This document shows, piece by piece, positions 2,950 to 61,239 of a DNA stretch of 64,000 nt (positions are counted from its first letter, which is position 1; each line of letters starts with the position of its first letter). Under the pieces are notes generated by a model. It was not told the origin of the DNA, did no database searches, and was given only the letters and a program-made list of their open reading frames with translations. The DNA is from Escherichia coli. GTDB lineage: Bacteria; Pseudomonadota; Gammaproteobacteria; Enterobacterales; Enterobacteriaceae. Both the position numbers and the translations under genes were made by a program. Location: the NCBI RefSeq assembly GCF_001677475.2, contig NZ_CP015229.1; one strand, given 5' to 3'.

Positions 2950-3043
2950 GCTGTTACGCCTGTTTCATTCCGCCCGATAGTAAAATTCGGGCAAAGCATC
3001 CCCGTGTAGCGCCATAAATGAGCTACAGGAGAAAAGGTTGAAA

Positions 3044-3904: not shown

Positions 3905-3909
3905 CGGTG

Positions 3910-4578
3910 TTAGCCTTCCAGGCCTGCAATAATGGCTTTGGAATCAGTAACCCAACCGAAAATGGCACCTTGTGCTTTGATCATCTCCAGGGCGTATTTC
4001 TGGAATTCCGGGAAATAGGAGCCAACGCAATCTTCCGGGATGATGCACTCATAACCACGATCATTCGCTTCGCGCACGGTGGTGGTCACACAGACTTCCG
4101 TGGTTACTCCGCAAACAATCAGCGTTTTGATGCCGTGGTTTTGCAAAATCAGATGTAAGTCGGTTTGATAAAAAGCGCCTTTGCCGGGTTTATCAATCAC
4201 CGGTTCGCCTGCGACCGGGTACAGTTCAGGAATGATGTCATGACCTGCTTCACCTCTGACCAGAATGCGCCCCATCGGGCCTGCTTCACCAATAAAGGTT
4301 TTACCGCCGCGCGTCAGTTTGGCTGGTGGGCAGTCGCTTAAGTCTGCACGATGGCCTTCACGGGTATGAATAACCATAATTCCTTTTTGACGTGCGGCTG
4401 CCAGCACCTCTGTACATGGAGCGATAGCCGTGCGTACCAGTGAAACATCATTGCCCAGTGCCTCACCGAAGCCCCCTGCTTCGACAAAGTCACGCTGCAT
4501 GTCGATCATGACCAGTGCAGTTGTGCGCGGATCAAAAGGTAATTCAAAGGGTTGAGCCTGAAAAATGGATTGCGTCAT
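3910..4578 (-). CDS. Isochorismatase-family cysteine hydrolase (amidohydrolase-like)
   Basis: 222 aa ORF; MIDMQRDF aspartate motif near the N-terminus and LIVCGVTTEVCV cysteine motif; 5 nt from the next gene. Confidence 0.75.
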   Translation of the reverse strand: MTQSIFQAQPFELPFDPRTTALVMIDMQRDFVEAGGFGEALGNDVSLVRTAIAPCTEVLAAARQKGIMVIHTREGHRADLSDCPPAKLTRGGKTFIGEAGPMGRILVRGEAGHDIIPELYPVAGEPVIDKPGKGAFYQTDLHLILQNHGIKTLIVCGVTTEVCVTTTVREANDRGYECIIPEDCVGSYFPEFQKYALEMIKAQGAIFGWVTDSKAIIAGLEG

Positions 4579-4835
4579 GGTAAATCTCCTGTCTGATGTT
4601 TAAACGATCCAGTTGTTCTGAGAACGAGTATTCAGGAGAAAAGCGGCACAAAACAGGAAAAAAGTTTGCCGCACAGCAACGAAATTTTTGCATTCAGCAG
4701 GCGGCGTGATGACGAATGTGAAGGGGGTCAAATCGTGGCATACAGCAACAAAATTTTTGATGCTGTATGGTTTTGAGTTTAAAAAAATCGTTGAAATTGT
4801 GTGAGCTTAAGCACCTGAGTTAGCTGCTATGGTGG

Positions 4836-5645
4836 TTATTTTTTAACACCATACTGCTTAAACCACTCCAGCATACGCTGCCAGCCATCTTTTGCAGATG
4901 CGGCATGATAGCTCGGGCGATAATCAGCGTTGAATGCATGCCCGGCGTCCGGGTACACGATAATCTCTGCTTTCGCATTAGCAGCCCGCAGCGCCTGGCG
5001 CATGGTTTCAACGCTCTCCTGCGGAATGCTGTTATCCTGACCACCATATAAGCCGAGAACCGGCGCGTTAAGATCGGTTGCGATATCAACAGGTTGTTTC
5101 GGTGAATTCAGCGACTTATCGCCTGTCAGTTTGCCGTACCATGCCACCGCCGCTTTCAGTTGCGGGTTATGCGCAGCATACAGCCAGGTGATACGTCCAC
5201 CCCAGCAGAATCCGGTGATCATTAAACGATGAACATCGCCGCCGTTGCGGGAAGCCCAACTGGCGACATGATCGAGATCGGCCAGCACCTGCGAGTCAGG
5301 CACTTTTGCTACCAGACCGCTAAGCAACGTGGGGATATCGGCAAAATCATTCGGATCGCCTTCGCGGAAGTAAAGTTCAGGTGCGATAGCCAGATATCCC
5401 TCCAGCGCCAGACGGCGACAAATGTCGCGGATATGTTCATGCACGCCAAAAATTTCCTGCACTACAATGACCACTGGCAGTGGGCCATCGCTTTGCTTTG
5501 GTCTGGCATGGTAAGCAGGCATGTTATCCCCTTGTGAGGGGATAGAGGTGAAGCCCGCCGCAATCGCGTCGTCCGGGGTCTGAACGATGGTCGAAGCGAG
5601 AGGCGATGCAGCAGGTGCAAATCCAGATTGTTGTGTTGTTGCCAT
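4836..5645 (-). CDS. ysgA: Dienelactone hydrolase-family protein
   Basis: ORF 4836-5711; start placed at internal MATTQQSGF (about 270 aa); position upstream of udp matches K-12. Confidence 0.8.
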   Translation of the reverse strand: MATTQQSGFAPAASPLASTIVQTPDDAIAAGFTSIPSQGDNMPAYHARPKQSDGPLPVVIVVQEIFGVHEHIRDICRRLALEGYLAIAPELYFREGDPNDFADIPTLLSGLVAKVPDSQVLADLDHVASWASRNGGDVHRLMITGFCWGGRITWLYAAHNPQLKAAVAWYGKLTGDKSLNSPKQPVDIATDLNAPVLGLYGGQDNSIPQESVETMRQALRAANAKAEIIVYPDAGHAFNADYRPSYHAASAKDGWQRMLEWFKQYGVKK

Positions 5646-5765
5646 GGTATTCTCCGTACCCTTATAAAAATGTTGCGCAATGTTAACTATAGTCAGCATG
5701 CAACAAATCACATTGCCTGAATCGGCTCATCTTTTATGCAGTCCTGCAGAATGAAGAGTGATTTA

Positions 5766-5833
5766 TGTGATTTGCATCACTTTTGGTGGGTAAATTTATG
5801 CAACGCATTTGCGTCATGGTGATGAGTATCACG
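5766..5833 (+). promoter_or_regulatory. udp promoter region with two CRP-like sites about 52 bp apart
   Basis: TGTGAtttgcaTCACt at 5766-5781 and GTGAtgagtaTCAC at 5818-5833, upstream of udp. Confidence 0.6.
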
Positions 5834-5906
5834 AAAAAATGTTAAACCCTTCGGTAAAGTGTCTTTTTGCTTCTTCTGACTAAACCGATTCACAGAGGAG
5901 TTGTAT

Positions 5907-6668
5907 ATGTCCAAGTCTGATGTTTTTCATCTCGGCCTCACTAAAAACGATTTACAAGGGGCTACGCTTGCCATCGTCCCTGGCGACCCGGATCGTGTGG
6001 AAAAGATCGCCGCGCTGATGGATAAGCCGGTTAAGCTGGCATCTCACCGCGAATTCACCACCTGGCGTGCAGAGCTGGATGGTAAACCTGTTATCGTCTG
6101 CTCTACCGGTATCGGCGGCCCGTCTACCTCTATTGCTGTTGAAGAGCTGGCACAGCTGGGCATTCGCACCTTCCTGCGTATCGGTACAACGGGCGCTATT
6201 CAGCCGCATATTAATGTGGGTGATGTCCTGGTTACCACGGCGTCTGTCCGTCTGGATGGCGCGAGCCTGCACTTCGCACCGCTGGAATTCCCGGCTGTCG
6301 CTGATTTCGAATGTACGACTGCGCTGGTTGAGGCTGCGAAATCCATCGGCGCGACGACTCACGTTGGCGTGACGGCTTCTTCTGATACCTTCTACCCAGG
6401 TCAGGAACGTTACGATACTTACTCTGGTCGCGTAGTTCGTCACTTTAAAGGTTCTATGGAAGAGTGGCAGGCGATGGGCGTAATGAACTATGAAATGGAA
6501 TCTGCAACCCTGCTGACCATGTGTGCAAGTCAGGGTCTACGTGCCGGTATGGTAGCGGGTGTTATCGTTAACCGCACCCAGCAAGAGATCCCGAATGCTG
6601 AGACGATGAAACAAACTGAAAGCCAAGCGGTGAAAATCGTGGTGGAAGCGGCGCGTCGTCTGCTGTAA
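5907..6668 (+). CDS. udp: Uridine phosphorylase
   Basis: [36 protein letters not shown]-terminus; about 253 aa. Confidence 0.95.
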
Positions 6669-6686
6669 TCCTCTTCTCCTGTCTGA

Positions 6687-6717
6687 AGGCCGACGCGTTC
6701 GGCCTTTTGTATTTTTG
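6687..6717 (+). terminator. Intrinsic terminator after udp
   Basis: aaggccgacgcgttcggcctt hairpin followed by a T-rich tract. Confidence 0.7.
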
Positions 6718-6808
6718 CGTAGCGCCTCGCAGGAAATGCCTTTCCAACTGGACGTTTGTACAGCACAATTCTATTTTGTGCGGGTAAGTTGTTGCGTCAG
6801 GAGGCGTT

Positions 6809-8236
6809 GTGGATTTCTCAATCATGGTTTACGCAGTTATTGCGTTGGTGGGTGTGGCAATTGGCTGGCTGTTTGCCAGTTATCAACATGCGCAGCAAAA
6901 AGCCGAGCAATTAGCTGAACGTGAAGAGATGGTCGCGGAGTTAAGCGCGGCAAAACAACAAATTACCCAAAGTGAGCACTGGCGCGCTGAGTGCGAGTTA
7001 CTCAATAACGAAGTGCGCAGCCTGCAAAGTATTAACACCTCTCTGGAGGCCGATCTGCGTGAAGTAACCACGCGGATGGAAGCCGCACAGCAACATGCTG
7101 ACGATAAAATTCGCCAGATGATTAACAGCGAGCAGCGCCTCAGTGAGCAGTTTGAAAACCTCGCCAACCGTATTTTTGAGCACAGCAATCGCCGGGTTGA
7201 TGAGCAAAACCGTCAGAGTCTGAACAGCCTGTTGTCGCCGCTACGTGAACAACTGGACGGTTTCCGCCGTCAGGTTCAGGACAGCTTCGGTAAAGAAGCA
7301 CAAGAACGCCATACCCTGACCCACGAAATTCGCAATCTCCAGCAACTCAACGCGCAAATGGCCCAGGAGGCGATCAACCTGACGCGCGCGCTGAAAGGCG
7401 ACAATAAAACTCAGGGCAACTGGGGCGAGGTAGTATTGACGCGGGTGCTGGAGGCTTCCGGTCTGCGTGAAGGGTATGAATATGAAACCCAGGTCAGCAT
7501 CGAAAATGACGCCCGCTCGCGGATGCAGCCGGATGTCATCGTGCGGCTGCCGCAGGGAAAAGATGTGGTGATCGACGCCAAAATGACGCTGGTCGCCTAT
7601 GAACGCTATTTTAACGCCGATGACGACTACACCCGCGAAAGCGCGCTACAGGAACATATCGCGTCGGTGCGTAACCATATCCGTTTGCTGGGACGCAAAG
7701 ATTATCAACAGCTGCCGGGGCTGCGAACCCTGGATTACGTGCTGATGTTTATTCCCGTTGAACCCGCTTTTTTACTGGCGCTTGACCGCCAGCCGGAGCT
7801 GATCACCGAAGCGTTGAAAAACAATATCATGCTGGTTAGCCCGACCACGCTGCTGGTGGCGCTGCGCACTATCGCCAACCTCTGGCGCTATGAGCATCAA
7901 AGTCGTAACGCCCAGAAAATAGCCGATCACGCCAGCAAGCTGTACGACAAGATGCGTTTGTTCGTCGATGACATGTCAGCGATTGGTCAAAGTCTCGACA
8001 AAGCGCAGGATAACTACCGCCAGGCAATGAAAAAACTCTCTTCAGGTCGCGGAAATGTGCTGGCGCAGGCAGAAGCGTTCCGCGGTTTAGGAGTAGAAAT
8101 TAAACGCGAGATTAATCCGGATTTGGCTGAACAGGCGGTGAGCCAGGATGAAGAGTATCGACTTCGGTCGGTTCCGGAGCAGCCGAATGATGAAGCTTAT
8201 CAACGCGATGATGAATATAATCAGCAGTCGCGCTAG
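6809..8236 (+). CDS. rmuC: DNA recombination protein RmuC
   Basis: 475 aa ORF with N-terminal membrane anchor and long coiled-coil region; conserved position. Confidence 0.9.
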   Translation: MDFSIMVYAVIALVGVAIGWLFASYQHAQQKAEQLAEREEMVAELSAAKQQITQSEHWRAECELLNNEVRSLQSINTSLEADLREVTTRMEAAQQHADDKIRQMINSEQRLSEQFENLANRIFEHSNRRVDEQNRQSLNSLLSPLREQLDGFRRQVQDSFGKEAQERHTLTHEIRNLQQLNAQMAQEAINLTRALKGDNKTQGNWGEVVLTRVLEASGLREGYEYETQVSIENDARSRMQPDVIVRLPQGKDVVIDAKMTLVAYERYFNADDDYTRESALQEHIASVRNHIRLLGRKDYQQLPGLRTLDYVLMFIPVEPAFLLALDRQPELITEALKNNIMLVSPTTLLVALRTIANLWRYEHQSRNAQKIADHASKLYDKMRLFVDDMSAIGQSLDKAQDNYRQAMKKLSSGRGNVLAQAEAFRGLGVEIKREINPDLAEQAVSQDEEYRLRSVPEQPNDEAYQRDDEYNQQSR

Positions 8237-24810: not shown

Positions 24811-26352
<1,542 letters not shown>

Positions 26353-26420
26353 CCTTAAAGAACTGTGCTTTGCAGTGCTCACACAGATTGTCTGATGAAA
26401 ATGAGCAGTAAAACCTCTAC

Positions 26421-26497
<77 letters not shown>

Positions 26498-26539
26498 AAT
26501 TTGCACCGCAAATTTGAAGAGGTTTTAACTACATGTTAT

Positions 26540-26615
26540 GGGGCTATAGCTCAGCTGGGAGAGCGCCTGCTTTGCACGCAGGAGGTCTGCGGTTCGATCC
26601 CGCATAGCTCCACCA
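26540..26615 (+). tRNA. alaT: tRNA-Ala (UGC)
   Basis: ggggctatagctcagctgggagagcgcctgctttgcacgcagg...gctccacca, 76 nt. Confidence 0.97.
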
Positions 26616-26798
26616 TCTCTGTAGTGATTAAATAAAAAATACTTCAGAGTGTACCTGCAAAGGTTCACTGCGAAGTTTTGCTCTTTAAAAATCTGGATCA
26701 AGCTGAAAATTGAAACACTGAACAACGAAAGTTGTTCGTGAGTCTCTCAAATTTTCGCAACACGATGATGAATCGAAAGAAACATCTTCGGGTTGTGA

Positions 26799-29701
<2,903 letters not shown>

Positions 29702-29798
29702 ACAACGCCGAAGCTGTTTTGGCGGATGAGAGAAGATTTTCAGCCTGATACAGATTAAATCGACAGGTCAGAACATGACGTGTTGATAAAACAGAATT

Positions 29799-29918
29799 TG
29801 CCTGGCGGCCGTAGCGCGGTGGTCCCACCTGACCCCATGCCGAACTCAGAAGTGAAACGCCGTAGCGCCGATGGTAGTGTGGGGTCTCCCCATGCGAGAG
29901 TAGGGAACTGCCAGGCAT
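29799..29918 (+). rRNA. rrfA: 5S ribosomal RNA
   Basis: tgcctggcggccgtagcgcggtgg...gggaactgccaggcat, 120 nt. Confidence 0.98.
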
Positions 29919-38866: not shown

Positions 38867-39013
38867 GATTCGCCTGAACATGCCCTTTTTTCGTAAGTAA
38901 GCAACATAAGCTGTCACGTTTTGTGATGGCTATTAGAAATTCCTATGCAACAACTGAAAAAAAATTACAAAAAGTGCTTTCTGAACTGAACAAAAAAGAG
39001 TAAAGTTAGTCGC

Positions 39014-39122
39014 GTAGGGTACAGAGGTAAGATGTTCTATCTTTCAGACCTTTTACTTCACGTAATCGGATTTGGCTGAATATTTTAGCCGCCCCAGTCA
39101 GTAATGACTGGGGCGTTTTTTA
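39014..39122 (+). ncRNA. spf: Spot 42 small RNA
   Basis: gtagggtacagaggtaagatgttctatctttcagacc...gccccagtcagtaatgactggggcgtttttt, 109 nt with its own terminator. Confidence 0.95.
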
Positions 39123-40150: not shown

Positions 40151-40393
40151 ATAGAGCGAGGACGCTAACAGGAACAATGACTCAGGATGAGGGTCAGGAG
40201 CGCCAGGAGGCGAAGACAGAGGATTGTCAGGAAGACAAACGTCCGGAGACGTAATTAAACGGAAATGGAATCAACACGGATTGTTCCGGCTAATGGAAAA
40301 ACAGGGTGTGTTGGCGGCCTGCAAGGATTGTAAGACCCGTTAAGGGTTATGAGTCAGGAAAAAAGGCGACAGAGTAATCTGTCGCCTTTTTTC
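40151..40393 (+). ncRNA. csrC: CsrC small RNA (CsrA-sequestering)
   Basis: Many GGA motifs (caggatgagggtcaggagcgccaggaggcgaag...); ends in gcgacagagtaatctgtcgcctttttt terminator. Confidence 0.9.
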
Positions 40394-40461
40394 TTTGCTT
40401 GCTTTCTGTTAGATTCCGCCGCAAATCTATACTGAATAAAACGGCTAAAAGACGAACCATT

Positions 40462-52680: not shown

Positions 52681-53469
52681 TCAGGATACTTCTTGCTCAG
52701 CAACCACCAGTTCAACATTCTCTTCACTTAACAACTGGCAGAAAGAATTGGGAGGCGGGGCATCAGTAAAAAAAGCCCTGACATTCCGTGCATTGCCAAT
52801 TGAAACGGCAGCAGACGCGGCAAACTTCGTATGATCGGCCACTAACAATGTATTCCGCGCATGTTTAATCATCGTTCTTGCGACTAACGCTTCATTGACA
52901 TCAAATTCCAGTAGGGTGCCGTCATGTTCAATGGCACCTATACTGGTGATTAAATAATCTGCGCGGAAGCCTTCAATAAAATCCACGGCTCCTGGGCCGA
53001 TAATCCCGCCGTTATGAGCGCGTAAAGTGCCTCCCGGCACCATCACTTCAATATCCTGATTCTTATAAAGAATCTGTGCCACACGTAGGCTGTTAGTGAT
53101 AATGCGTAAATCACGACGGTTGAGTAATGCCCTGGCAACGGCTTCTACGGTTGTACCGATGGTGATAAAGACGGTACAGCGTTCGGGAAGGTAATCGGCG
53201 ACTGCCTCAGCGATCGCCCGTTTCTCGGCGGTGAGCGAAAGTTCCCGTTGCTCAAAAGCGGTATTCATGACGCTGGAGACGCGCCCGGCCCCTCCATGAT
53301 GACGGGTGATCAACCCCTGCTCACTGAGTTTTCGGATATCCCGGCGCACGGTTTGCGTTGAAACATCCAGCAGTTGTGCCAGTTCTTCAATATTCATATA
53401 ACCGCGTTCTGCGATTAGATGAACGAGTTGGTCATGGCGTGGATTACCTGTCACTTCGATGATACTCAT
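52681..53469 (-). CDS. DeoR-family transcriptional repressor (YihW/CsqR-like)
   Basis: 262 aa; N-terminal HTH (IEELAQLLDVSTQTVRRDIRKL) and sugar-phosphate-binding C-terminal domain; homologous but not identical to K-12 YihW as I recall it. Confidence 0.85.
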   Translation of the reverse strand: MSIIEVTGNPRHDQLVHLIAERGYMNIEELAQLLDVSTQTVRRDIRKLSEQGLITRHHGGAGRVSSVMNTAFEQRELSLTAEKRAIAEAVADYLPERCTVFITIGTTVEAVARALLNRRDLRIITNSLRVAQILYKNQDIEVMVPGGTLRAHNGGIIGPGAVDFIEGFRADYLITSIGAIEHDGTLLEFDVNEALVARTMIKHARNTLLVADHTKFAASAAVSIGNARNVRAFFTDAPPPNSFCQLLSEENVELVVAEQEVS

Positions 53470-53508: not shown

Positions 53509-54405
53509 TTACGCATAAAGTGACAAAAATGATTCGGTTTGCTCACGATTAGGAATGCCGGCCCGACCGCCAGGCTGGGTACATTTCATCGCGGCAACCG
53601 CACTGGCAAAACGAATAGCCTCTTTTGTTGGCATTTTTTCTGCCAACGCTACCGCGAGTGCGCCGTGAAAAACATCGCCTGCTCCAGTGGTATCAACCAC
53701 ATTGACAGAAAATGCCTCCTGTTGACACAAATGATCATCTTCAATCCACAACGATCCTTCAGAACCCAGCGTAACATACACTTTACCTGCTGTTTGTGTC
53801 GTTGCCTGGAACAAACCTTCTTCAGGTGACTGCAGGCCAGTCATGCGTTTCAGCCCCGGTGTTGAGAACACGGCGTGATCGGCAAGCGCGACAAGTGGAG
53901 AAATATCCTGCGGTGTCATATCGGCGTCTAAAAGCGTTGTCACCCCCGCAAGGCGCGCTAGCGAGAATGCTTTTTCAGTACCGCTATGCCAGCGAACATC
54001 GGCCAGAATCAGATCATAACGAGAGAAATCGATCGCTTCTAACCATTCGGCATCAGTACCGAGATCGGGACTTGGATAATTAACGATAATCCGTTCGCCA
54101 TGCTGATCAACGAGGATCGCTGATTGCGACGAACGGGCGTTAGGATATCGGCGGCAAAATGCGGTATTGACGCCCCAACCCTCAAGTTCTGCAAGTAAGG
54201 TATTTCCACAACTGTCATCGCCGACGCGACCGATGAAATCAACCTCCACGCCAAGCTTTGCGATTGCAACAGCGGCTGTTGCTGCCGGGCCGCCACCAAT
54301 CTCAAGATAATGATTTGCCTGATATTTCCCGCCGCCATCCGGCAGAGTGAGCAAAGAATAAATCCTGTCCTGAACTGTGATACCCACGCATGCAATTTTT
54401 GTCAT
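53509..54405 (-). CDS. PfkB-family sugar kinase (YihV-like)
   Basis: Start at [16 protein letters not shown]; [11 protein letters not shown] and [12 protein letters not shown] motifs; ORF track extends to 54456. Confidence 0.85.
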
Positions 54406-54577
54406 ATTTGTCTTGTCCTGTTTAATTTTGTCGTCTTTGGTCAATTTAAATGACACAAATGATCAAATTAGTGATGTGTGTCGTGTTTTTGAACATAAAT
54501 TACAAATATGCTCAAAAACAGACGAAAACGAATTTTCAATTGTCATTATTTTGTCAATGTCAGACAGGAGAGTATTC

Positions 54578-55456
54578 ATGGCAACCATTGCATTTCTCGG
54601 GCTGGGGCAGATGGGTAGCCCAATGGCTAACAATCTATTGCGAAAAGGGCATTCATTGCAGGTATTTGATGTCAATGCACAGGCCGTCGATGCGCTAGTT
54701 ACGCAGGGGGCCACTGCGGCACAAACCCCAGCGGAAGCGGCAGCAGGCGCTGAATTTATCATCACTATGCTTCCCAATGGTGACATTGTTCGACAGGTTC
54801 TGTTGGGGGAAAAAGGCGTCTGTGAGGCTGTTTCATCTGACGCGTTATTGATTGATATGTCGACTATTCATCCCTTACAGACCGATGCATTAATACGGGA
54901 GTTACAAGAAAAAGGCATCAGTATGATGGACGCCCCCGTGGGCAGAACATCCGTGAATGCGATTGATGGCACATTGCTGATTTTAGCGGGTGGCACTGAT
55001 GAGCAGATTGCGCGTGCACGCCCGATTCTCATGTGCATGGGTAATGAGCTGGTCGAGGCTGGCGGCCCAGGAATGGGGATCCGCGTGAAGCTAATTAACA
55101 ACTATATGAGCATTGCGCTTAATGCGCTGTCCTCCGAGGCCGCTGTGTTATGTGAGTCACTGGGATTAAATCTTGATGTCGCAATTAAGGTGATGAGTGG
55201 TACGGCAGCAGGGAAAGGACATTTTACGACCACCTGGCCTGGCAAAGTGCTGAAAGGCGATCTTTCACCCGCCTTCATGGTGGATCTGGCGTTGAAAGAT
55301 CTGCGTATTGCAGTTGACGTCGCTCGGGAGACGGGGGCACCGCTCAATATGGGGATTGCAGCAGAAAGTTATTACGCCGCAGCAAGTCAAGACGGCAAAG
55401 GGCGGCAGGACTGGAGCGCCCTGCTAAATCAGGTTCGCCAGCAGGCTGGTCTTTAA
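54578..55456 (+). CDS. NAD-dependent beta-hydroxyacid dehydrogenase-family reductase (YihU-like)
   Basis: Start at [20 protein letters not shown] (Rossmann GLGQMG) with RBS caggagag upstream; about 292 aa. Confidence 0.85.
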
Positions 55457-55480: not shown

Positions 55481-56368
55481 ATGTCATCCCACTTCACCCC
55501 ATTTACGCTGAAAGATATCTCCCGCCCAGGTGGTGGATTCGCCATGTTAGCTGTCGATCAGCGTGAGGCCATGCGCCTGATGTTTGCGGCAGCAGGGCAG
55601 CCCAAACCCATCGCCGACAGTGTACTCACCGATTTTAAAGTTGCCGCGACCCGAATCCTTTCTCCTTATGCTTCTGCCGTTCTGGCGGATAAACAATTTT
55701 GTCTTGAGCAAATAGTCGAGCAGGGCGCTGTTGCTAATTCTTGCGGCCTGATTGTCGCTGCCGATCTTTTTATCCCAGGTAATGGCATCCCGGTTGATAG
55801 CGTTGAAATAGATATGTCCGTCGACCCGCATAAAGCCCGTGAAATGGGGGCTAAGGCAATGAAATTACTTGTACTCTGGCGTGAAGATGAACCCGCAGAG
55901 GAACGTCTGGCAATGGTTGATAAATTTGTTCGTCGCTGCCGTAGTGCCGGACTGGTTAGCATTATTGAACCTGTGGTGCGTCCACCTCGTCGCGGTTGGG
56001 ACTTTGATCGTGAAAGCGCCATTGCCGCGGCCGCCGCAGAGCTTGGTGGAACAGAGGCTGATCTTTACAAAGCCGAGATGCCATTAGGGGGCAAAGGCGA
56101 TGAAAAAACCTTACTTGCCGCCTGTCAGCAACTTAACGATCAGATGAAGATGCCGTGGGTAATTCTTTCTTCTGGCGTTGATGCCGATATTTTTGGCCGT
56201 GCAGTAAGTATTGCCATGAAAGGTGGGGCGTCGGGCTTCCTGGCTGGACGAGCGGTTTGGGCGTCGGTTGTTGGTGCACAAGATCCACAAACTATGCTGC
56301 GCGATGTCTCCGTTCCACGCTTGCAACGGCTGGCTGAAATTGTCGATGAAGGTATCGCGCAACGCTAA
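55481..56368 (+). CDS. Class I (LacD-like) ketose-phosphate aldolase (YihT-like)
   Basis: 295 aa; [14 protein letters not shown] and [12 protein letters not shown] motifs. Confidence 0.85.
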
Positions 56369-56400: not shown

Positions 56401-57411
56401 ATGGATAAAAGTACCCAGGTTTTATTTTCAGATATTGGGAAAGTCACCACTCAATATGTTGAAGTACCACACCAGGAACTTAAACCGCACGAAGTGCGGA
56501 TTGCGCCTGTGTTCTATGGGATATGCGGTTCGGATCTGCATGTTCTGAAAGGCGGTCATCCGTTTGCCAAACCACCTGTCGTCCCCGGTCATGAAATTGC
56601 AGCGCGCGTTGCGGAAGTTGGCAGCGACGTTAAAAATGTACAGCCGGGCGATCATGTTGTGGTCGATCCCATCATGGCTTGCATGGAATGCCGAGCCTGC
56701 AAAGCAGGACGTTTTAATCTTTGTGAACCACCGCAGGTTGCTGGTTTTCGCGCACCGGGCTTTGCTCGCTCACAACACATTGTTCCTGCGCGTAATTGCC
56801 ATGTCGCACCAGCCTCTTTACCGCTAAAAGTGTTAGCCTTTGCCGAACCGGCGGCTTGTGCTCGTCACTGCGTTAACCGAATGCCGAAAGCTTCTCTGGA
56901 AAGCGTACTGGTGATTGGTGCCGGAACGATAGGCTTATCCATCGTGCAGGCACTGCGCATTATGGGGGCAGGTAAGATTACCGTGATTGAACCTGACGCT
57001 GCCAAACGCGCGCTGGCGTTAAAGCTGGGCGCAGCAGAAGTTTGGGCACCAGGTGAGCTGGCCGCAGATGTGCGATTTACGGGGGCGATTGATGTCGTTG
57101 CAGCGCAGGCCACGCTTAACGATGCATGTACCCGTGTATATGCCGGAGGCACCGTCGTGTGCATGGGCGTACCAAGTGGGCCGCGTGAAATACCATTACC
57201 TATGATGCAACGTTTCGAGCGTGACTTGCTCAACTCTGGCATGTACATCCCTGAAGATTTCGATGCTGTTATCGAATGGCTGGCGGATGGGCGGTTTGAT
57301 ACCAGTGAACTGGTTACCGATTTATTTGCCATTGAGGATGCAGCGGCGGCATTCGAACGCGCGCAGCAAAATGACTCCATAAAGGTCATGCTGCAATTTG
57401 CGCCGGAATGA
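56401..57411 (+). CDS. Zinc-dependent medium-chain dehydrogenase/reductase
   Basis: 336 aa; catalytic-zinc GHE motif (PVVPGHEIAARV), four-cysteine structural zinc cluster (CMECRACKAGRFNLC), Rossmann VIGAGTIGL. Confidence 0.85.
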   Translation: MDKSTQVLFSDIGKVTTQYVEVPHQELKPHEVRIAPVFYGICGSDLHVLKGGHPFAKPPVVPGHEIAARVAEVGSDVKNVQPGDHVVVDPIMACMECRACKAGRFNLCEPPQVAGFRAPGFARSQHIVPARNCHVAPASLPLKVLAFAEPAACARHCVNRMPKASLESVLVIGAGTIGLSIVQALRIMGAGKITVIEPDAAKRALALKLGAAEVWAPGELAADVRFTGAIDVVAAQATLNDACTRVYAGGTVVCMGVPSGPREIPLPMMQRFERDLLNSGMYIPEDFDAVIEWLADGRFDTSELVTDLFAIEDAAAAFERAQQNDSIKVMLQFAPE

Positions 57412-57480
57412 TTTTCTAAATCTCTGTCTGGCGCTGCGTCACGTCAGCGCCACCCTACAACAATTAAAAAGGACACTGCG

Positions 57481-58914
57481 ATGAGTCAAATCACCAGTCC
57501 TGCAACTTATTCAATTAGTCGGCCACAGGACGTAATTGATATTGTTAATAAGAACTCTGCAATCAACACCAGTATCGGCGTTATTTTTATTGCTTTGGGC
57601 GGCATATTGATTGATGCCTACCAGGCGGCGATGGTGGGGTTTGGTAATAAATACATTGCCGCTCAATTCGGCATTTCGCCGGGTCTTGCTGCAACCGTCA
57701 ATGCATCAGTATTAATCGCCGCGTTAATTGGCGGTTTATTAGCGAACCGAGTAATAAACCGCTTTGGGCAAAAGCGGGCATTTATTATTGGCATGGGGCT
57801 GTGCACCATCGGTGCTGCAGCGGTAGCTATTGCTCCCAGTATCTGGTGGGTGCTGGTGTGCCGCGTCATCATGGGCTTTGGTTTAGGCATCGACTTCCCT
57901 TTGGCAACCAATGCCGTGGCAGAGCTTCGTGGTTCAACGTCGAAGAAAACCGGAACGTCGGTCAACCTCTGGCAAATGGCCTGGTATGTTTCGACAACCG
58001 TTGTTTATTTGGTGCTTTTGCCGCTGCTTCTGTCGGGTATCGCTGAAGAACAATTGTGGCGTTACGGAATATTCATCGGAGCTATTTTTGCAGTCATCTT
58101 CATGATTTTGCGTTACTTCTTTATTGGTGAATCCGCAATGTGGGCTGCACGCGTCGGGCGTTACCAGGAAGCGTGCGACATTCTGGGAAAACGTTATGGT
58201 GTTCAGGCTCGCGTTGCGGCATCGGGTACAACAGAAGCGAAATTCTCGGAAAAAGCAGAGAATAAATACAGTGGTGGATATGGCATCTTATTTAATGATC
58301 GTTACCGCAAACGCACCATTCTTGGTTGTGTCGTGGCAACCATGCAGGCGTGGCAATATAACGCCGTAGGTGTTTATCTTCCTCTTACGTTGGCGGGAAT
58401 AATAAGTGGCGGGCTTACTGGCGCGTTGACCGGTTCTGCCGTCGTGAATGCCCTTTGTGGGGTGACAGGTGGGATGATCGGCTCGTTTATTCTCCAACGA
58501 CTGGGTACTCGCCGACAGTCGATGTATGGATTTGCTGTTGTGACCTTAGCATTGCTGTCGTTAGGCGCACTGGCAACGACTAATCCCTGGCTGTCTTTAG
58601 GGTTATTGGGATCAATTATTTTCTTCCATTCAGCGGGTCCTGGTGGGCTGGGCATGACCATTGCCACACTCTCTTATCCTCCCGCTATTCGTCCTACTGG
58701 GGTCGGATTTGCCCGCGCTATTATGCGCACAGGGGCAATTGCAGGACTCATTTTCTGGCCGATGCTGTGGGGTACGTTGAAAACTGAAGCGTTTTATTGG
58801 TTGGCAATTGTGCCATTCCTGGGGTTCCTGACCTGCGTATTGATTAATTGGGAACCTTTGGGAGCAAATGTTGATGCTGAGGATGCAGAGGTTCTGGCTG
58901 AATTGAAGAAATAA
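57481..58914 (+). CDS. MFS transporter, subfamily unclear
   Basis: 477 aa polytopic membrane protein with a central hydrophilic loop. Confidence 0.8.
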   Translation: MSQITSPATYSISRPQDVIDIVNKNSAINTSIGVIFIALGGILIDAYQAAMVGFGNKYIAAQFGISPGLAATVNASVLIAALIGGLLANRVINRFGQKRAFIIGMGLCTIGAAAVAIAPSIWWVLVCRVIMGFGLGIDFPLATNAVAELRGSTSKKTGTSVNLWQMAWYVSTTVVYLVLLPLLLSGIAEEQLWRYGIFIGAIFAVIFMILRYFFIGESAMWAARVGRYQEACDILGKRYGVQARVAASGTTEAKFSEKAENKYSGGYGILFNDRYRKRTILGCVVATMQAWQYNAVGVYLPLTLAGIISGGLTGALTGSAVVNALCGVTGGMIGSFILQRLGTRRQSMYGFAVVTLALLSLGALATTNPWLSLGLLGSIIFFHSAGPGGLGMTIATLSYPPAIRPTGVGFARAIMRTGAIAGLIFWPMLWGTLKTEAFYWLAIVPFLGFLTCVLINWEPLGANVDAEDAEVLAELKK

Positions 58915-58951
58915 ATTAATGCGCATCGGCTTAAACCGATGCGCATTAATT
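58914..58951. repeat. 16-bp perfect inverted repeat (stem-loop or operator)
   Basis: aattaatgcgcatcgg cttaaa ccgatgcgcattaatt, starting at the stop codon of the upstream transporter gene. Confidence 0.8.
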
Positions 58952-59012
58952 CAAACTGCCCACGTTTAGTGGTTCGTATCCCAGATTTCTCGCCTACCAG
59001 GAGAGGAAAATT

Positions 59013-60362
59013 ATGTCTGAAAAGTTACCCGCACCGCGTGAAGGGCTTTCCGGTAAAGCCATGAGACGTGTCGTTATGGGCAGTTTCGCAGGCGCGTTAA
59101 TGGAATGGTATGACTTCTTTATTTTTGGCACGGCAGCAGGACTGGTATTTGCACCGCTGTTTTATCCAGACAGCGATCCTTTTATAGGTCTTATAGCTTC
59201 CTTTGCGACCTTTGGTGTCGGTTTTCTGACTCGTCCTTTAGGTGGCATCGTCTTTGGTCATTTTGGCGATAAAATCGGGCGAAAAATAACACTTATCTGG
59301 ACGCTGGCTATTGTCGGTTGCTCCACATTTTTGATTGGTTTTATTCCGACGTATCAGGAAATTGGCATTTGGGCACCGCTTGTATTAATGGTGCTGCGTT
59401 TGATTCAGGGCTTTGGTCTTGGTGGCGAGTACGGCGGAGCGGCATTGATGACCATAGAATCAGCGCCCGAATCCCGACGCGGATTTTTAGGTTCACTCCC
59501 GCAAACGGCTGCGTCTGTGGGTATTATGCTGGCAACCGGTATTTTTGCTCTCTGTAACCATTTTCTTACTTCGGAGCAGTTTCTCTCCTGGGGATGGCGC
59601 ATTCCGTTTTGGCTTTCTGCGGTGATGTTGATCGTTGGGCTGTTTATCCGCCTGCATACCGAAGAAACGCTGGATTTTCAAAAGCAAAAAACGACGAATA
59701 ATAAAGAAAAGTCCGTTCCTCCGTTGATTGAATTATTCAAAAAACATCCACGAAATATTTTATTGGCACTGGGTGCGAGGCTGGCGGAAAGTGTCTCCTC
59801 TAATATTATTAACGCCTTTGGTATTGTCTATATTTCCAGCCAATTAGCATTGTCGCGAGATATTCCCCTGACGGGTATGTTGATTGCCTCGGCGATCGGT
59901 ATTTTCAGTTGTCCATTGGTTGGATGGTTATCAGATCGTATAGGTCAAAAAAGTCTGTATTTGTCGGGAGCAGGATTTTGTGTCCTGTTCGCGTTTCCTT
60001 TCTTCTTATTACTGGATAGCAAAAGTACGCTCATCATCTGGTGCAGTATGATCCTCGGCTACAACTTAGGTCCGACGATGATGTTTGCCGTGCAGCCAAC
60101 ACTTTTCACCCGCATGTTCGGTACCAAAGTACGATATACCGGCCTTTCTTTTGCTTATCAATTTTCCGCGATTCTTGGCGGACTAAGCCCCCTTATCGCC
60201 TCAAGTTTGCTGGCGCTAGGGGGAGGAAAACCGTGGTATGTCGCTCTGTTTTTATTTGCTGTCTCAGTTCTTTCCTTTGTTTGCGTCTGGCTGATTGAGC
60301 CGACCGATGAACAAGAAACCGCTTCTTACCGCTACATCAGGGAACAATCTCATGAAAACTGA
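59013..60362 (+). CDS. MFS transporter of metabolite:H+ symporter type (ProP/KgtP/ShiA-like)
   Basis: 449 aa; WYDFFIFG and GLGGEYGGAALM signature segments. Confidence 0.8.
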   Translation: MSEKLPAPREGLSGKAMRRVVMGSFAGALMEWYDFFIFGTAAGLVFAPLFYPDSDPFIGLIASFATFGVGFLTRPLGGIVFGHFGDKIGRKITLIWTLAIVGCSTFLIGFIPTYQEIGIWAPLVLMVLRLIQGFGLGGEYGGAALMTIESAPESRRGFLGSLPQTAASVGIMLATGIFALCNHFLTSEQFLSWGWRIPFWLSAVMLIVGLFIRLHTEETLDFQKQKTTNNKEKSVPPLIELFKKHPRNILLALGARLAESVSSNIINAFGIVYISSQLALSRDIPLTGMLIASAIGIFSCPLVGWLSDRIGQKSLYLSGAGFCVLFAFPFFLLLDSKSTLIIWCSMILGYNLGPTMMFAVQPTLFTRMFGTKVRYTGLSFAYQFSAILGGLSPLIASSLLALGGGKPWYVALFLFAVSVLSFVCVWLIEPTDEQETASYRYIREQSHEN

Positions 60363-61239
60363 ACGAAAAAACGAGCATTACCTGGCGCTACAACAGGCGT
60401 TTGACGCGCCATGGCCTGGGCCTGTAGGAGAGTTAGTGACGCTGGAAAAAGGCAATATTCACCTGCAGATTTATCCGCATGATGGTGCCAGGATAACCTC
60501 GTTAAAGGCATTTGGTTCTGAAGTATTACGCCAATGGCAGCCGCAGCGCAGAGCTTTTCAGTATGGCTGTTTCCCAATGGTGCCGTGGGCAGGGCGACTG
60601 GGGAATGCGACGCTGAATGCTGGTGGGCAATGTTATTCTTTACCCGCCAATAAACCACCACATGCGTTGCATGGTATGGCTTGTTACTCAACGTGGGAAA
60701 TCATCGACAAAACAATAGATTCCCTGACTTTACGTATGCCCCTGGCTTCACCGTGGCCCTGGCAAGGGGAAGTGATTCAGACTTTTTTGCTGGAGAACGA
60801 TGCGCTGGTTTTGCAACTGGAAATCCATTCACATACCGATACATTCCCGGCCTCTGCAGGCTGGCATCCGTGGTTTGCGAAAAAGCTGACTCCGCAAAAT
60901 ACAGAATCGTTGCAGGTGCTTTTTGATGCGGACTGGCAAGAGGAAGCGGGTAGTGATGAACTGCCAACTGGAAATCGCATCTCTCCTCAAGCTGGTCCCT
61001 GGGATGACTGTTTTGGTTTTTATGACGGGGTGAAGGTTAAGTTACTGTGGCCTGGTAAACTCACGATGACCATGACCTCTTCTGCAAACAGTCTGGTGGT
61101 ATTTGATAAACAGCCCGATGCCACCTGTGTTAATCCGCTTACTCAGGCACCTAACGCAATAAATCTAACGCCGGAATTGGTGACATCAGATAAGCCGCTG
61201 GTCATCGAAACTCGTTGGCAATTTACACCTGAATCTTAA
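60352..61239 (+). CDS. Aldose 1-epimerase family protein (YihR-like mutarotase)
   Basis: Start at MKTERKNEHYLALQQAFD, overlapping the upstream transporter stop by 11 nt; ORF track starts at 60295. Confidence 0.75.
   Translation: MKTERKNEHYLALQQAFDAPWPGPVGELVTLEKGNIHLQIYPHDGARITSLKAFGSEVLRQWQPQRRAFQYGCFPMVPWAGRLGNATLNAGGQCYSLPANKPPHALHGMACYSTWEIIDKTIDSLTLRMPLASPWPWQGEVIQTFLLENDALVLQLEIHSHTDTFPASAGWHPWFAKKLTPQNTESLQVLFDADWQEEAGSDELPTGNRISPQAGPWDDCFGFYDGVKVKLLWPGKLTMTMTSSANSLVVFDKQPDATCVNPLTQAPNAINLTPELVTSDKPLVIETRWQFTPES

What the first reader, a model, noticed from the sequence alone, without database searches (positions are those of the whole stretch)
57481..60362. Two non-GPH MFS transporters, one of the organic-anion symporter type
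The K-12 cluster uses GPH-family glycoside transporters (YihO, YihP). Here the second transporter (59013-60362) has the WYDFFIFG and GEYGG segments typical of the metabolite:H+ symporter family, whose known members carry organic anions or zwitterions. That would fit an anionic substrate or product such as a sulfonate or sugar acid rather than a neutral glycoside.
Basis: partly seen in the sequence, partly recalled or inferred. Interest (0 to 1): 0.5.

Follow-up and report, generated by a model that had tools for sequence, protein, structure and literature searches.

The report
Sulfonate transporters of variant yih cassette
The two transporter genes are real and most likely bring a sulfonated sugar into the cell and send its three-carbon sulfonate waste out, as part of an undescribed sulfosugar-breakdown cassette carried by about a quarter of E. 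coli strains.

Summary
Both ORFs are intact, conserved 12-helix MFS genes, and neither is a GPH transporter. K-12 YihO and YihP score 529 and 537 bits on the GPH model. MFS2 (59013-60362) is an MHS-family protein: 41% identical to ShiA, and WYDFFIFG and GEYGG are present. MFS1 (57481-58914) fits no curated subfamily.

They lie in an eight-gene cassette: YihW-, YihV-, YihU- and YihT-like genes, a Zn-dependent dehydrogenase, MFS1, MFS2 and an epimerase-like gene. The cassette replaces ompL-yihOPQRS in 1327 of 5426 complete E. coli genomes. The only paper on this locus calls it a truncated "yihTUVW" cassette and ignores the other four genes.

The same cassette occurs in Alpha-, Beta- and Gammaproteobacteria and Actinomycetota. 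MFS2 homologues (56-60%) sit in sulfo-ED clusters with a sulfoquinovose 1-dehydrogenase orthologue and a TauE exporter. MFS1 homologues take YihP's place in canonical clusters, and TauE replaces MFS1 elsewhere.

Best reading, inferred and not shown: MFS2 imports free sulfoquinovose or a close sulfosugar, and MFS1 exports DHPS. The dehydrogenase stands where the isomerase YihS should be, and its reaction is unknown.

The parts
52681..53469 (-). DeoR-family regulator, YihW/CsqR-like
   Evidence: 72% identical to K-12 CsqR. RefSeq annotation. The Nissle orthologue binds the yihU/V region and is released by SQ more weakly than the K-12 protein (PMC12608037).
53509..54405 (-). PfkB kinase, YihV-like (predicted sulfofructose kinase)
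   Evidence: 67% identical to K-12 YihV. The sulfonate triad K27/N109/R138 and D13, S95 and D244 are conserved (residues from PMC8006165). The start follows RefSeq; the ORF listing extends the ORF to 54456.
54406..54577 (.). Divergent intergenic control region between the kinase and reductase genes
   Evidence: Sequence. It corresponds to the yihU/V region bound by YihW in EMSA (PMC12608037). The consensus scan found no promoter-like site here.
54578..55456 (+). YihU-like sulfolactaldehyde reductase
   Evidence: 580 bits on the SLA reductase equivalog NF012005, cut-off 348. 72% identical to YihU. R123, N174 and S178 are conserved.
55481..56368 (+). Class I aldolase, YihT-like (predicted sulfofructose-1-phosphate aldolase)
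   Evidence: 67% identical to K-12 YihT. K193, S226, S227, R253 and A26 are conserved here and in every class I orthologue examined.
56401..57411 (+). Zn-dependent, probably NAD-preferring, polyol-dehydrogenase-type enzyme in the position of the missing isomerase
   Evidence: Catalytic Zn ligands C42/H64/E65/E149 and structural Zn cysteines C94/97/100/108 are invariant. The nearest solved structures are RspB, ketose reductase, sorbitol dehydrogenase and GatD. It is always found with MFS1, MFS2 or both, and never with YihS.
57481..58914 (+). MFS1: orphan Sugar_tr-type MFS transporter, predicted DHPS (C3-sulfonate) exporter
   Evidence: Pfam Sugar_tr 104 bits. Best NCBIfam match is the aromatic-acid:H+ family at 104.6 bits against a cut-off of 418. 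28 of 30 genome loci place it in the same cassette. Homologues replace YihP next to YihS and YihO in Gilliamella and L042. TauE takes its place in L040.
58912..58953 (.). 19-bp inverted repeat overlapping the MFS1 stop codon and extending into the MFS1-MFS2 spacer
   Evidence: No T-run follows on the + strand, so it is not an obvious terminator for the operon. Its function was not examined.
59013..60362 (+). MFS2: MHS-family transporter, predicted H+-coupled importer of sulfoquinovose or a close sulfosugar
   Evidence: Family evidence. Homologues at 56-60% identity are the only importer candidates in the sulfo-ED clusters L037 and L038 and in the ADH clusters L039 and L040.
60352..61239 (+). 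Aldose-1-epimerase-fold protein whose start overlaps the MFS2 stop by 11 nt
   Evidence: RefSeq annotation. Orthologues carry Pfam Aldose_epim. Only 27% identical to YihR. Both His and the Asp are conserved, but the catalytic Glu of the 'EP' motif is Asn in the E. coli clade.

Best explanation
The two genes are the uptake and efflux arms of an eight-gene sulfosugar catabolic cassette. This cassette is the alternative allele of the K-12 ompL-yihOPQRSTUVW locus.

MFS2 is an MHS-family proton symporter. It is proposed to import a free, anionic 6-sulfonated hexose, most likely sulfoquinovose released by other organisms; the cassette has no sulfoquinovosidase. An unknown step involving the Zn-dependent dehydrogenase yields sulfofructose or an epimer. 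The YihV-like kinase, YihT-like aldolase and YihU-like reductase then give DHAP and DHPS. MFS1 is proposed to export the DHPS.

What is shown: the gene content, the family assignments, the conserved sulfonate-binding residues and the cross-cluster associations.

What is inferred: the substrates, the direction of each transporter and the reaction of the dehydrogenase.
For: 1. MFS2 belongs to the MHS family, whose characterised members take up organic anions or zwitterions with H+. The family placement rests; the substrate range is established knowledge.

2. MFS2 homologues at 56-60% identity lie in the clusters of Azospirillum thermophilum and Deefgea piscis. These hold an ILVD_EDD dehydratase, an HpcH aldolase, a lactonase, an epimerase, a beta-hydroxyacid reductase, TauE, and an SDR that matches PDB 9gwu 'sulfoquinovose 1-dehydrogenase' at E=1e-95. 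With TauE as the exporter, the MHS protein is the only importer candidate.

3. The minimal Prauserella cluster has MFS2 as its only transporter. The Streptomyces rapamycinicus-type cluster has MFS2 plus TauE and no MFS1.

4. MFS1 homologues (45-51%) sit beside YihS and a single GPH YihO in SQ-glycerol clusters that lack YihP. A 37% homologue sits among GabD-type, beta-HAD and ComC-family (Ldh_2) dehydrogenases.

5. MFS2 and the epimerase gene are adjacent in nearly every cassette locus (gene order swapped in L015) and overlap in the window. Where the reductase is not YihU-like, it lies between MFS1 and MFS2.

6. The sulfonate-binding residues of YihV, YihT and YihU are all conserved.

7. All genes are under purifying selection, and the block is present in 1327 of 5426 E. 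coli genomes.

8. E. coli Nissle 1917 carries this cassette and lacks yihOPQRS, yet is reported to grow on SQ about as well as K-12 (PMC12608037).
Against: - No transport, growth or enzyme data exist for these proteins.
- In Nissle 1917 the yihTUVW genes of this cassette were not induced by SQ, and yihU looked repressed. The authors concluded the cassette is not involved in SQ use, and growth was poor with a starvation-like transcriptome.
- A polyol-type Zn dehydrogenase is not known to convert an aldose to a ketose, so a key step is unexplained.
- A Zn dehydrogenase next to a PfkB kinase and a PF01791 aldolase in Paracoccus wurundjeri had no activity on sulfolactaldehyde, and its role is unknown. 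Its homology to this dehydrogenase could not be checked (PMC12421959).
- The epimerase-like protein lacks the catalytic Glu in E. coli.
- Transporters at 56-60% identity can differ in substrate.
- The direction of MFS1 is inferred only from which transporters replace which.
Confidence: 0.55

Rival explanations
1. The pathway is as proposed, but the imported compound is not sulfoquinovose. It could be a 6-deoxy-6-sulfo-hexitol oxidised to sulfofructose by ordinary polyol-dehydrogenase chemistry, much as GatD oxidises galactitol-1-phosphate. It could also be another sulfosugar such as sulfofucose or sulforhamnose.
For: - The dehydrogenase's nearest relatives are polyol and aldonate dehydrogenases: RspB, ketose reductase, sorbitol dehydrogenase and GatD. 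JGI labels some orthologues L-gulonate 5-dehydrogenase.
- SQ does not induce the cassette in Nissle.
- The actinobacterial versions lack the epimerase gene, and the E. coli epimerase-like protein lacks the catalytic Glu.
- The class II aldolase variants score high on GatY-type tagatose-bisphosphate aldolase models, best or second-best hit depending on the locus.
- The P. wurundjeri dehydrogenase rose in abundance on sulfofucose.
Against: - A search of the paper library found no report of a sulfo-hexitol.
- MFS2 homologues serve clusters built around a sulfoquinovose 1-dehydrogenase orthologue.
- Most cassettes keep an epimerase-fold gene, which points to a ring-forming sugar.
- SQ still releases Nissle YihW from DNA.
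Confidence: 0.25
2. The transporter roles are reversed or redundant: MFS1 imports the sulfosugar and MFS2 exports the sulfonate product, or both are importers.
For: - MFS transporters can run in either direction.
- The 37% MFS1 homologue in Amycolatopsis sits in what looks like a C3-sulfonate catabolic cluster, where it would import.
- No direction has been measured.
Against: - In clusters with TauE, MFS2 is retained and MFS1 is absent.
- In clusters with the importer YihO, MFS1 is retained and MFS2 is absent.
- The minimal cluster keeps only MFS2.
- Characterised MHS members are uptake systems (established knowledge).
Confidence: 0.12
3. The cassette handles a non-sulfonated anionic sugar, such as a keto-uronate or an aldonate-derived ketose. 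On this view the transporters carry sugar acids, and the reductase acts on tartronate semialdehyde or a similar aldehyde.
For: - The dehydrogenase resembles aldonate and polyol dehydrogenases.
- The nearest characterised relative of MFS2 carries shikimate.
- The reductases of the alphaproteobacterial and actinobacterial cassettes score about equally on the SLA reductase, tartronate semialdehyde reductase and L-threonate dehydrogenase models.
- SQ does not induce the cassette.
Against: - The E. coli reductase passes the curated SLA reductase equivalog (580 bits against 348).
- The kinase keeps the K27/N109/R138 sulfonate triad, and all class I aldolases keep R253.
- TauE, a sulfite/sulfonate exporter family, occurs in a dehydrogenase-type cluster.
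- MFS2 homologues lie in sulfo-ED clusters.
Confidence: 0.1
4. In E. coli the cassette is a silent or decaying remnant, as suggested in PMC12608037, and the transporters have no current role.
For: - The cassette shows no transcriptional response to SQ in Nissle, and YihW binds weakly at 37 C.
- The catalytic Glu of the epimerase-like protein is replaced by Asn.
- That gene carries 9 amino-acid changes in 14 nucleotide differences between two E. coli strains.
Against: - All eight ORFs are intact in the window and in strain C4.
- The two transporters show almost only synonymous differences within E. coli.
- dN is small against a saturated dS in comparison with Citrobacter.
- The block is kept at 95-99% identity in 1327 genomes.
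- The same gene set is conserved across phyla.
Confidence: 0.08

Closest known systems
E. coli K-12 sulfo-EMP cluster (ompL-yihOPQRSTUVW; Denger 2014, Sharma 2021)
   Same: Same chromosomal site between yihN and yihX. The regulator, kinase, aldolase and reductase are homologous at 67-72% identity, with all sulfonate-binding residues kept. Both have one predicted importer and one predicted exporter.
   Different: There is no porin, no sulfoquinovosidase and no YihS isomerase. The GPH transporters YihO and YihP are replaced by an MHS protein and an orphan MFS protein. A Zn dehydrogenase is added. The epimerase is only 27% identical to YihR. The orientation is reversed. SQ does not induce it in Nissle.
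'Short yih cassette (yihTUVW)' of Kaznadzey et al. 2025 (PMC12608037)
   Same: It is the same locus and allele, found in Nissle 1917 and many pathogenic strains. The YihW identity to K-12 is 72% both in the paper and here.
   Different: The paper treats the cassette as a four-gene truncation. Its text and supplement do not mention the dehydrogenase, the two MFS genes or the epimerase gene. Here the cassette is an eight-gene unit conserved across phyla.
Metabolite:H+ symporter family (TC 2.A.1.6), e.g. ShiA, ProP, KgtP, TcuC
   Same: MFS2 aligns over its full length with the family profile and is 41% identical to ShiA. It shares the WYDF and GGE(Y/W)GG segments and motif A.
   Different: It is below the curated cut-offs of every named member, for example 409.7 against 538 for ShiA. 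It forms its own clade tied to sulfosugar clusters. No sulfonate substrate is known to me for this family, and a library search linking MHS and sulfoquinovose found nothing.
Sulfo-ED clusters with a TauE exporter (Azospirillum thermophilum and Deefgea piscis loci; SQ dehydrogenase as in P. putida SQ1, PDB 9gwu)
   Same: They share an MFS2-type MHS transporter at 56-60% identity, a beta-hydroxyacid reductase and an epimerase-fold gene.
   Different: The core chemistry differs: dehydrogenase, lactonase, dehydratase and KDSG-type aldolase. TauE stands in for MFS1. The epimerase and reductase are only 27-33% identical to those of the cassette.
Galactitol (gat) and ydj-type pathways of E. coli
   Same: They combine a Zn-dependent polyol or aldonate dehydrogenase, a PfkB-type kinase, a ketose-phosphate aldolase, a DeoR regulator and, in the ydj cluster, two MFS transporters. 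This resemblance comes from established knowledge and was not tested beyond the profile hits.
   Different: Their substrates carry phosphate or carboxylate groups. Here the kinase, aldolase and reductase bear sulfonate-specific residues.

Membership tests
Metabolite:H+ symporter (MHS) family, for MFS2 | Full-length match to the family profile TIGR00883 at or above the curated cut-off | tested here: inconclusive
   406.8 bits, E=1e-121, covering model positions 1-399 of 400, but the cut-off is 443.45. NCBI names near-identical E. coli proteins 'MHS family MFS transporter'.
Metabolite:H+ symporter (MHS) family, for MFS2 | Full-length homology to a characterised member | tested here: met
   41% identity and 63% positives over 428 residues with K-12 ShiA, E=2e-117.
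Metabolite:H+ symporter (MHS) family, for MFS2 | Family-typical segments and a 6+6 helix layout | tested here: met
   WYDFFIFG at 32-39, GEYGG at 138-142, motif A at 82-91 and again at 304-313, with 11 hydropathy peaks flanking a central loop. ShiA has DWYDFLLYG and GGEWGG at the aligned places.
Metabolite:H+ symporter (MHS) family, for MFS2 | Proton-coupled uptake of an organic anion or zwitterion | not testable with these tools
   This needs transport assays.
Glycoside-pentoside-hexuronide (GPH) family, both proteins | Match to TIGR00792 above the cut-off of 231.35, as for YihO and YihP | tested here: not met
   YihO scores 529 and YihP 537 bits. MFS1 gives no hit and MFS2 a partial 42.4 bits. 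Pfam MFS_2 is marginal. BLASTP against YihO and YihP gives E>=0.004.
Sugar porter family (neutral sugars), both proteins | Match to TIGR00879 above the cut-off of 237.8 | tested here: not met
   71.2 bits for MFS1 and 52 bits for MFS2. MFS1 has no PE[ST] motif.
Aromatic acid:H+ symporter family, for MFS1 | Match to TIGR00895 above the cut-off of 418.55 | tested here: not met
   104.6 bits. This is the best of all curated families for MFS1 and spans almost the whole protein. Homologues score 114-120 bits. MFS1 is therefore an unassigned Sugar_tr-type clade.
Sulfo-EMP gene cluster | Sulfofructose kinase with the K27/N109/R138 sulfonate triad | tested here: met
   67% identical to YihV, with all seven checked residues conserved.
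Sulfo-EMP gene cluster | Class I SFP aldolase with Schiff-base K193 and sulfonate/phosphate R253 | tested here: met
   67% identical to YihT, with residues conserved in all 25 orthologues examined.
Sulfo-EMP gene cluster | SLA reductase | tested here: met
   580 bits on NF012005 against a cut-off of 348, with R123, N174 and S178 conserved.
Sulfo-EMP gene cluster | SQ-SF isomerase (YihS, PF07221, or SqvD) | tested here: not met
   No YihS homologue lies in the window cassette or within 10 kb in any of the 28 cassette loci. YihS is found only where the dehydrogenase is absent. The paper reports no yihS elsewhere in short-cassette genomes.
Sulfo-EMP gene cluster | Sulfoquinovosidase | tested here: not met
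   No YihQ homologue is present in cassette loci.
Sulfo-EMP gene cluster | SQ mutarotase with catalytic His, His, Asp and Glu | tested here: inconclusive
   An epimerase-fold gene is present. Both His and the Asp are conserved, but the Glu is Asn in the E. coli clade and Glu in other orthologues.
Sulfo-EMP gene cluster | Induction by, and growth on, sulfoquinovose | not testable with these tools
   The literature is mixed. The Nissle cassette is not induced by SQ, yet the strain is reported to grow on SQ (PMC12608037).

The most novel reading that the evidence does not exclude
The cassette could be a seventh, isomerase-free route of sulfoglycolysis. In it a Zn/NAD-dependent polyol-type dehydrogenase makes sulfofructose from sulfoquinovose, either through a sulfo-hexitol or by an internal hydride relay. 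An MHS-family protein would be the first identified secondary importer of free sulfoquinovose, and MFS1 would found a new family of DHPS exporters. This would explain how E. coli Nissle 1917 and many ExPEC strains grow on SQ without yihS, yihO or yihP.
Probability: 0.3. Interest if true: 0.8.

Novelty: new variant of a known kind. Interest (0 to 1): 0.62.

Why it matters
Sulfoquinovose is among the most abundant organosulfur compounds. Its breakdown by gut bacteria feeds DHPS to sulfite-respiring, H2S-producing organisms. About a quarter of complete E. coli genomes carry this allele rather than the K-12 cluster, including the ST131 strain JJ1886; Nissle 1917 carries it according to PMC12608037. 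The only paper on the allele reads it as a truncated, non-functional remnant.

If the eight genes form a working pathway with their own importer and exporter, three things would follow:
- Predictions of which E. coli strains use sulfosugars would change.
- There would be candidate genes for the still unproven steps of SQ uptake and DHPS export.
- There would be an enzyme that replaces the isomerase.

Each of these can be tested directly with knockouts, complementation and LC-MS.

Tried and rejected
- **Shared MFS2-epimerase module.** I tested whether the MFS2 plus epimerase pair is shared as a unit with sulfo-ED clusters. It is not: the epimerases are only 27% identical and the reductases 30-33%. 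Only MFS2 is shared.
- **Solved structures of the transporters.** These gave only weak hits to phosphate transporters and GlcP, which say nothing about substrate.
- **Literature.** Searches for any sulfo-hexitol name found no papers. Searches for a dehydrogenase-containing sulfoglycolysis variant or an MHS-type SQ importer found nothing relevant. The library covers open-access papers only.
- **The dehydrogenase as an SLA dehydrogenase.** A Zn dehydrogenase in the same gene context in P. wurundjeri had no activity on SLA. Every cassette already has a reductase or an aldehyde dehydrogenase.
- **The dehydrogenase as an SQ 1-dehydrogenase.** I rejected this because the cassette has no dehydratase or KDSG-type aldolase, and the kinase keeps all residues that contact sulfofructose.
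- **dN/dS.** Exact values could not be obtained because dS is saturated against other genera. Only upper bounds and within-species counts are given.
- **Sulfonate residues in distant cassettes.** In the roughly 30%-identity kinases and reductases of the alphaproteobacterial and actinobacterial cassettes these residues are not conserved, or the alignment is unreliable. Those enzymes neither support nor refute a sulfonate substrate.
- **Promoter scan.** It found fewer sites than in shuffled sequence, so no promoter is claimed.


Full report
**1. The observation**

The window is E. coli chromosome running from the rrnA operon through polA, glnALG and typA to yihLMN, yihXY and dtd.

ORFs 57481-58914 (477 aa, "MFS1") and 59013-60362 (449 aa, "MFS2") are complete. 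They coincide with RefSeq genes annotated only as "MFS transporter".

WYDFFIFG lies at residues 32-39 and GEYGG at 138-142. MFS motif A occurs at 82-91 and again at 304-313. Hydropathy gives 12 peaks for MFS1 and 11 for MFS2, in two groups of about six around a central loop.

**2. Family assignment**

- K-12 YihO and YihP score 529 and 537 bits on the GPH model TIGR00792, whose cut-off is 231.
- MFS1 does not hit that model. MFS2 gives only a partial 42 bits. BLASTP of either protein against YihO and YihP is not significant.
- Neither protein reaches the sugar-porter model: 71 and 52 bits against a cut-off of 238.
- MFS2 matches the metabolite:H+ symporter model TIGR00883 end to end (406.8 bits, E=1e-121). 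This is slightly below the curated cut-off of 443 and below the cut-offs of all named members.
- MFS2 is 41% identical to the shikimate:H+ symporter ShiA over 428 residues. NCBI and JGI call its close homologues "MHS family".
- The best curated match for MFS1 is the aromatic-acid:H+ family, at 104.6 bits against a cut-off of 418. In Pfam it is simply Sugar_tr/MFS_1. It belongs to no described subfamily.

The observation and the family call are therefore confirmed.

**3. Context in the window**

The two genes lie in this gene order:

| Position | Strand | Gene |
|---|---|---|
| 52681-53469 | - | DeoR regulator |
| 53509-54405 | - | PfkB kinase |
| 54578-55456 | + | beta-hydroxyacid reductase |
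| 55481-56368 | + | class I aldolase |
| 56401-57411 | + | Zn-dependent dehydrogenase |
| 57481-58914 | + | MFS1 |
| 59013-60362 | + | MFS2 |
| 60352-61239 | + | aldose-1-epimerase-fold protein |

The cassette sits between yihN and yihX. In K-12 the same site holds ompL-yihOPQRSTUVW.

Identities to the K-12 proteins are 72% for the regulator (CsqR), 67% for the kinase (YihV), 72% for the reductase (YihU) and 67% for the aldolase (YihT). The epimerase is only 27% identical to YihR.

The published sulfonate-binding residues come from PMC8006165. They are YihV K27/N109/R138, YihT R253/A26 with Schiff-base K193, and YihU R123/N174/S178. All are conserved in the window proteins. The reductase also passes the curated sulfolactaldehyde reductase equivalog, at 580 bits against 348.

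The dehydrogenase-MFS1-MFS2-epimerase block is present at 95-99% identity in 1327 of 5426 complete E. coli genomes.

**4. What the literature says**

Kaznadzey et al. 2025 (PMC12608037) describe this allele as a "short yihTUVW cassette". They find it in Nissle 1917 and many pathogenic strains, in reversed orientation.

They report that its genes are not induced by sulfoquinovose (SQ). Its YihW binds DNA more weakly than the K-12 protein and is released less completely by SQ. Nissle nevertheless grows on SQ about as well as K-12.

Neither the main text nor the supplement mentions the dehydrogenase, the two MFS genes or the epimerase gene. A January 2026 review lists six SQ pathways and none has this gene content. 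Other searches found nothing on it.

**5. Related loci**

MFS1 homologues at 60-92% identity occur in these groups:
- Enterobacterales;
- Alphaproteobacteria (Rhodovastum, Roseospira, Pleomorphomonas, Telmatospirillum, Rhodopseudomonas);
- Betaproteobacteria (Propionivibrio, Sutterella);
- Succinivibrionaceae and Vibrio;
- Actinomycetota (Streptomyces, Schaalia, Propionibacteriaceae).

In 28 of 30 species-level genome loci, MFS1 lies in the same cassette.

The constant part is the dehydrogenase, MFS1, MFS2 and, in most loci, the epimerase, at 45-94% identity. The other functions are filled by non-orthologous proteins:
- There are three kinase types. Only the YihV-like type keeps the full sulfonate triad.
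- The aldolase is either class I YihT-type or class II ketose-bisphosphate type.
- The reductase is either YihU-like or a roughly 30%-identity type.

Displacement of this kind around a fixed core is what a complete, self-contained pathway would show. No cassette locus contains a YihS or YihQ homologue.

**6. Evidence on the role of MFS2**

MFS2 homologues of 56-60% identity lie in clusters of Azospirillum thermophilum and Deefgea piscis. Each cluster contains an ILVD_EDD dehydratase, an HpcH/HpaI aldolase, an epimerase, an SGL lactonase, a beta-hydroxyacid reductase, an SDR, TauE, the MHS transporter and a LacI regulator.

The SDR matches PDB 9gwu, "sulfoquinovose 1-dehydrogenase", at E=1e-95. 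These are therefore sulfo-ED clusters for free SQ. TauE belongs to a sulfite/sulfonate exporter family, which leaves the MHS protein as the only importer candidate.

A Prauserella contig has kinase, aldolase, dehydrogenase (45%) and MFS2-like (56%) genes with no other transporter in that gene run (a TRAP system lies on the opposite strand downstream). A Streptomyces rapamycinicus-type locus has an aldehyde dehydrogenase, a DeoR regulator, kinase, aldolase, TauE, dehydrogenase (43%) and MFS2-like (58%) genes.

In the window, the MFS2 stop overlaps the start of the epimerase gene. The two genes are adjacent in almost every cassette locus, in swapped order in L015.

**7. Evidence on the role of MFS1**

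In Gilliamella (two loci) and on one further contig, an MFS1 homologue (45-51%) lies between YihS and a single GPH YihO. This is inside a cluster with YihQ, YihT, YihU, YihV, CsqR and glycerol/dihydroxyacetone genes. That cluster has no dehydrogenase, no MFS2 and no second GPH protein. There MFS1 occupies the place of YihP, the putative DHPS exporter.

Where MFS1 is missing from clusters that contain MFS2, TauE is present.

A 37% homologue in Amycolatopsis sits between a GabD-type aldehyde dehydrogenase and beta-HAD, 2-hydroxyacid and Ldh_2 (ComC-family) dehydrogenases. That set resembles C3-sulfonate metabolism.

These complementary patterns point to a C3 sulfonate as the MFS1 substrate. In this cassette the direction would be export.

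**8. The unexplained step**

The dehydrogenase is a standard medium-chain Zn enzyme. Its catalytic ligands are C42/H64/E65/E149 and its structural cysteines are C94/97/100/108. It has a GAGTIG nucleotide motif followed by an acidic residue, which suggests a preference for NAD.

Its closest solved relatives are RspB, ketose reductase, sorbitol dehydrogenase, threonine dehydrogenase and GatD. It never co-occurs with YihS. It therefore stands where the isomerase should be, but how it would supply a 2-ketose is unknown. There are two options:
- It oxidises a 6-sulfo-hexitol. That is ordinary chemistry for this family, by analogy with GatD. No such compound has been reported.
- It converts SQ itself through a reduction-oxidation sequence or an internal hydride relay. 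That would be new enzymology.

A related published observation concerns Paracoccus wurundjeri. There a "threonine dehydrogenase" lies next to a PfkB kinase and a PF01791 aldolase, with no isomerase in the cluster. It rose in abundance on sulfofucose and had no activity on sulfolactaldehyde (PMC12421959). I could not retrieve that sequence to test whether it is an orthologue.

**9. Is the cassette alive in E. coli?**

All eight ORFs are intact in the window and in strain C4.

Against Citrobacter, dN is 0.05-0.19 with dS at 1.4 or higher, or saturated. Between two E. coli strains, MFS1 has 1 amino-acid change in 16 nucleotide differences and MFS2 has 1 in 7.

The exception is the epimerase-like gene, with 9 amino-acid changes in 14 differences. 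Its catalytic Glu in the "EP" motif is Asn in the Escherichia/Citrobacter clade and several other lineages, while other orthologues keep Glu. That gene may be under relaxed or altered constraint.

**10. Conclusion**

The genes are non-GPH transporters, one is MHS type, and both fit an anionic sulfonate.

My best explanation has confidence 0.55. MFS2 imports free SQ or a close sulfosugar, and MFS1 exports DHPS, within an isomerase-free variant of sulfo-EMP.

The main weaknesses are the lack of SQ induction in Nissle, the unexplained dehydrogenase step and the absence of any transport data.

At the level of family names the annotation already exists. What is new is the recognition that this is a complete eight-gene cassette conserved across phyla, with its own candidate importer and exporter.

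Noticed in passing
window 60352-61239: In the epimerase-like protein, the conserved catalytic Glu of the aldose-1-epimerase 'xxEPxx' motif is Asn (TCVNPLTQ). The same holds in Citrobacter, Mixta, Erwinia, Vibrio, Sutterella and Propionivibrio orthologues. Alphaproteobacterial, actinobacterial, Leminorella and Budvicia orthologues keep Glu. Both His and the Asp are conserved. The gene also carries 9 amino-acid changes in 14 nucleotide differences between two E. coli strains.
   Followed up: partly
window 58912-58953: A 19-bp near-perfect inverted repeat (TAAATTAATGCGCATCGG...CCGATGCGCATTAATT) overlaps the MFS1 stop codon and extends into the 98-nt spacer before MFS2. No T-run follows on the + strand, though there is one on the - strand. 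It could be an mRNA-processing or stabilising hairpin.
   Followed up: no
window 56401-61239, versus PMC12608037: The published 'short yihTUVW cassette' omits four co-oriented, closely spaced genes downstream of yihT: the dehydrogenase, MFS1, MFS2 and the epimerase gene. The public RNA-seq data could be re-read for them.
   Followed up: partly
L013, L021, L022, L024, L025, L026, L031, L035: In these cassettes the class I YihT-type aldolase is replaced by a class II ketose-bisphosphate aldolase; the GatY model is the second-best hit in L026 (313 bits). In L022, L024 and L035 the kinase and aldolase have moved downstream of the epimerase gene.
   Followed up: partly
L022 and L031 (Citrobacter sp. 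NCU1): One genome carries two diverged copies of the cassette on different contigs. Their MFS1 proteins are 63% and 62% identical to the window protein, and the two copies differ in gene order.
   Followed up: no
L030/L032 (Gilliamella) 5358-8125: The canonical SQ cluster of Gilliamella also encodes glycerol dehydrogenase and DhaK/DhaL. This would let the glycerol released from sulfoquinovosyl glycerol be used as well.
   Followed up: no
L040 (Streptomyces rapamycinicus-type locus) 2658-5269: A GabD-type aldehyde dehydrogenase and an enolase-superfamily (MR_MLE) gene lie divergently next to the kinase-aldolase-TauE-dehydrogenase-MFS2 cluster. Transposase genes flank the cluster.
   Followed up: no
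window 53509-54456: The mechanical ORF for the kinase starts 17 codons upstream of the RefSeq start at 54405. The alignment with YihV begins at the RefSeq start.
   Followed up: yes
window 9454-49392: The rest of the window is ordinary E. coli core genome. It holds an rRNA operon (24811-29916) with two spacer tRNAs, Spot 42 (39004-39122), CsrC (40151-40404) and the sRNA matches Erse, ES222 and STnc370. The low-GC stretch at 32-36 kb is the conserved yihF-yihG-polA region, present in 5417 of 5426 genomes.
   Followed up: yes
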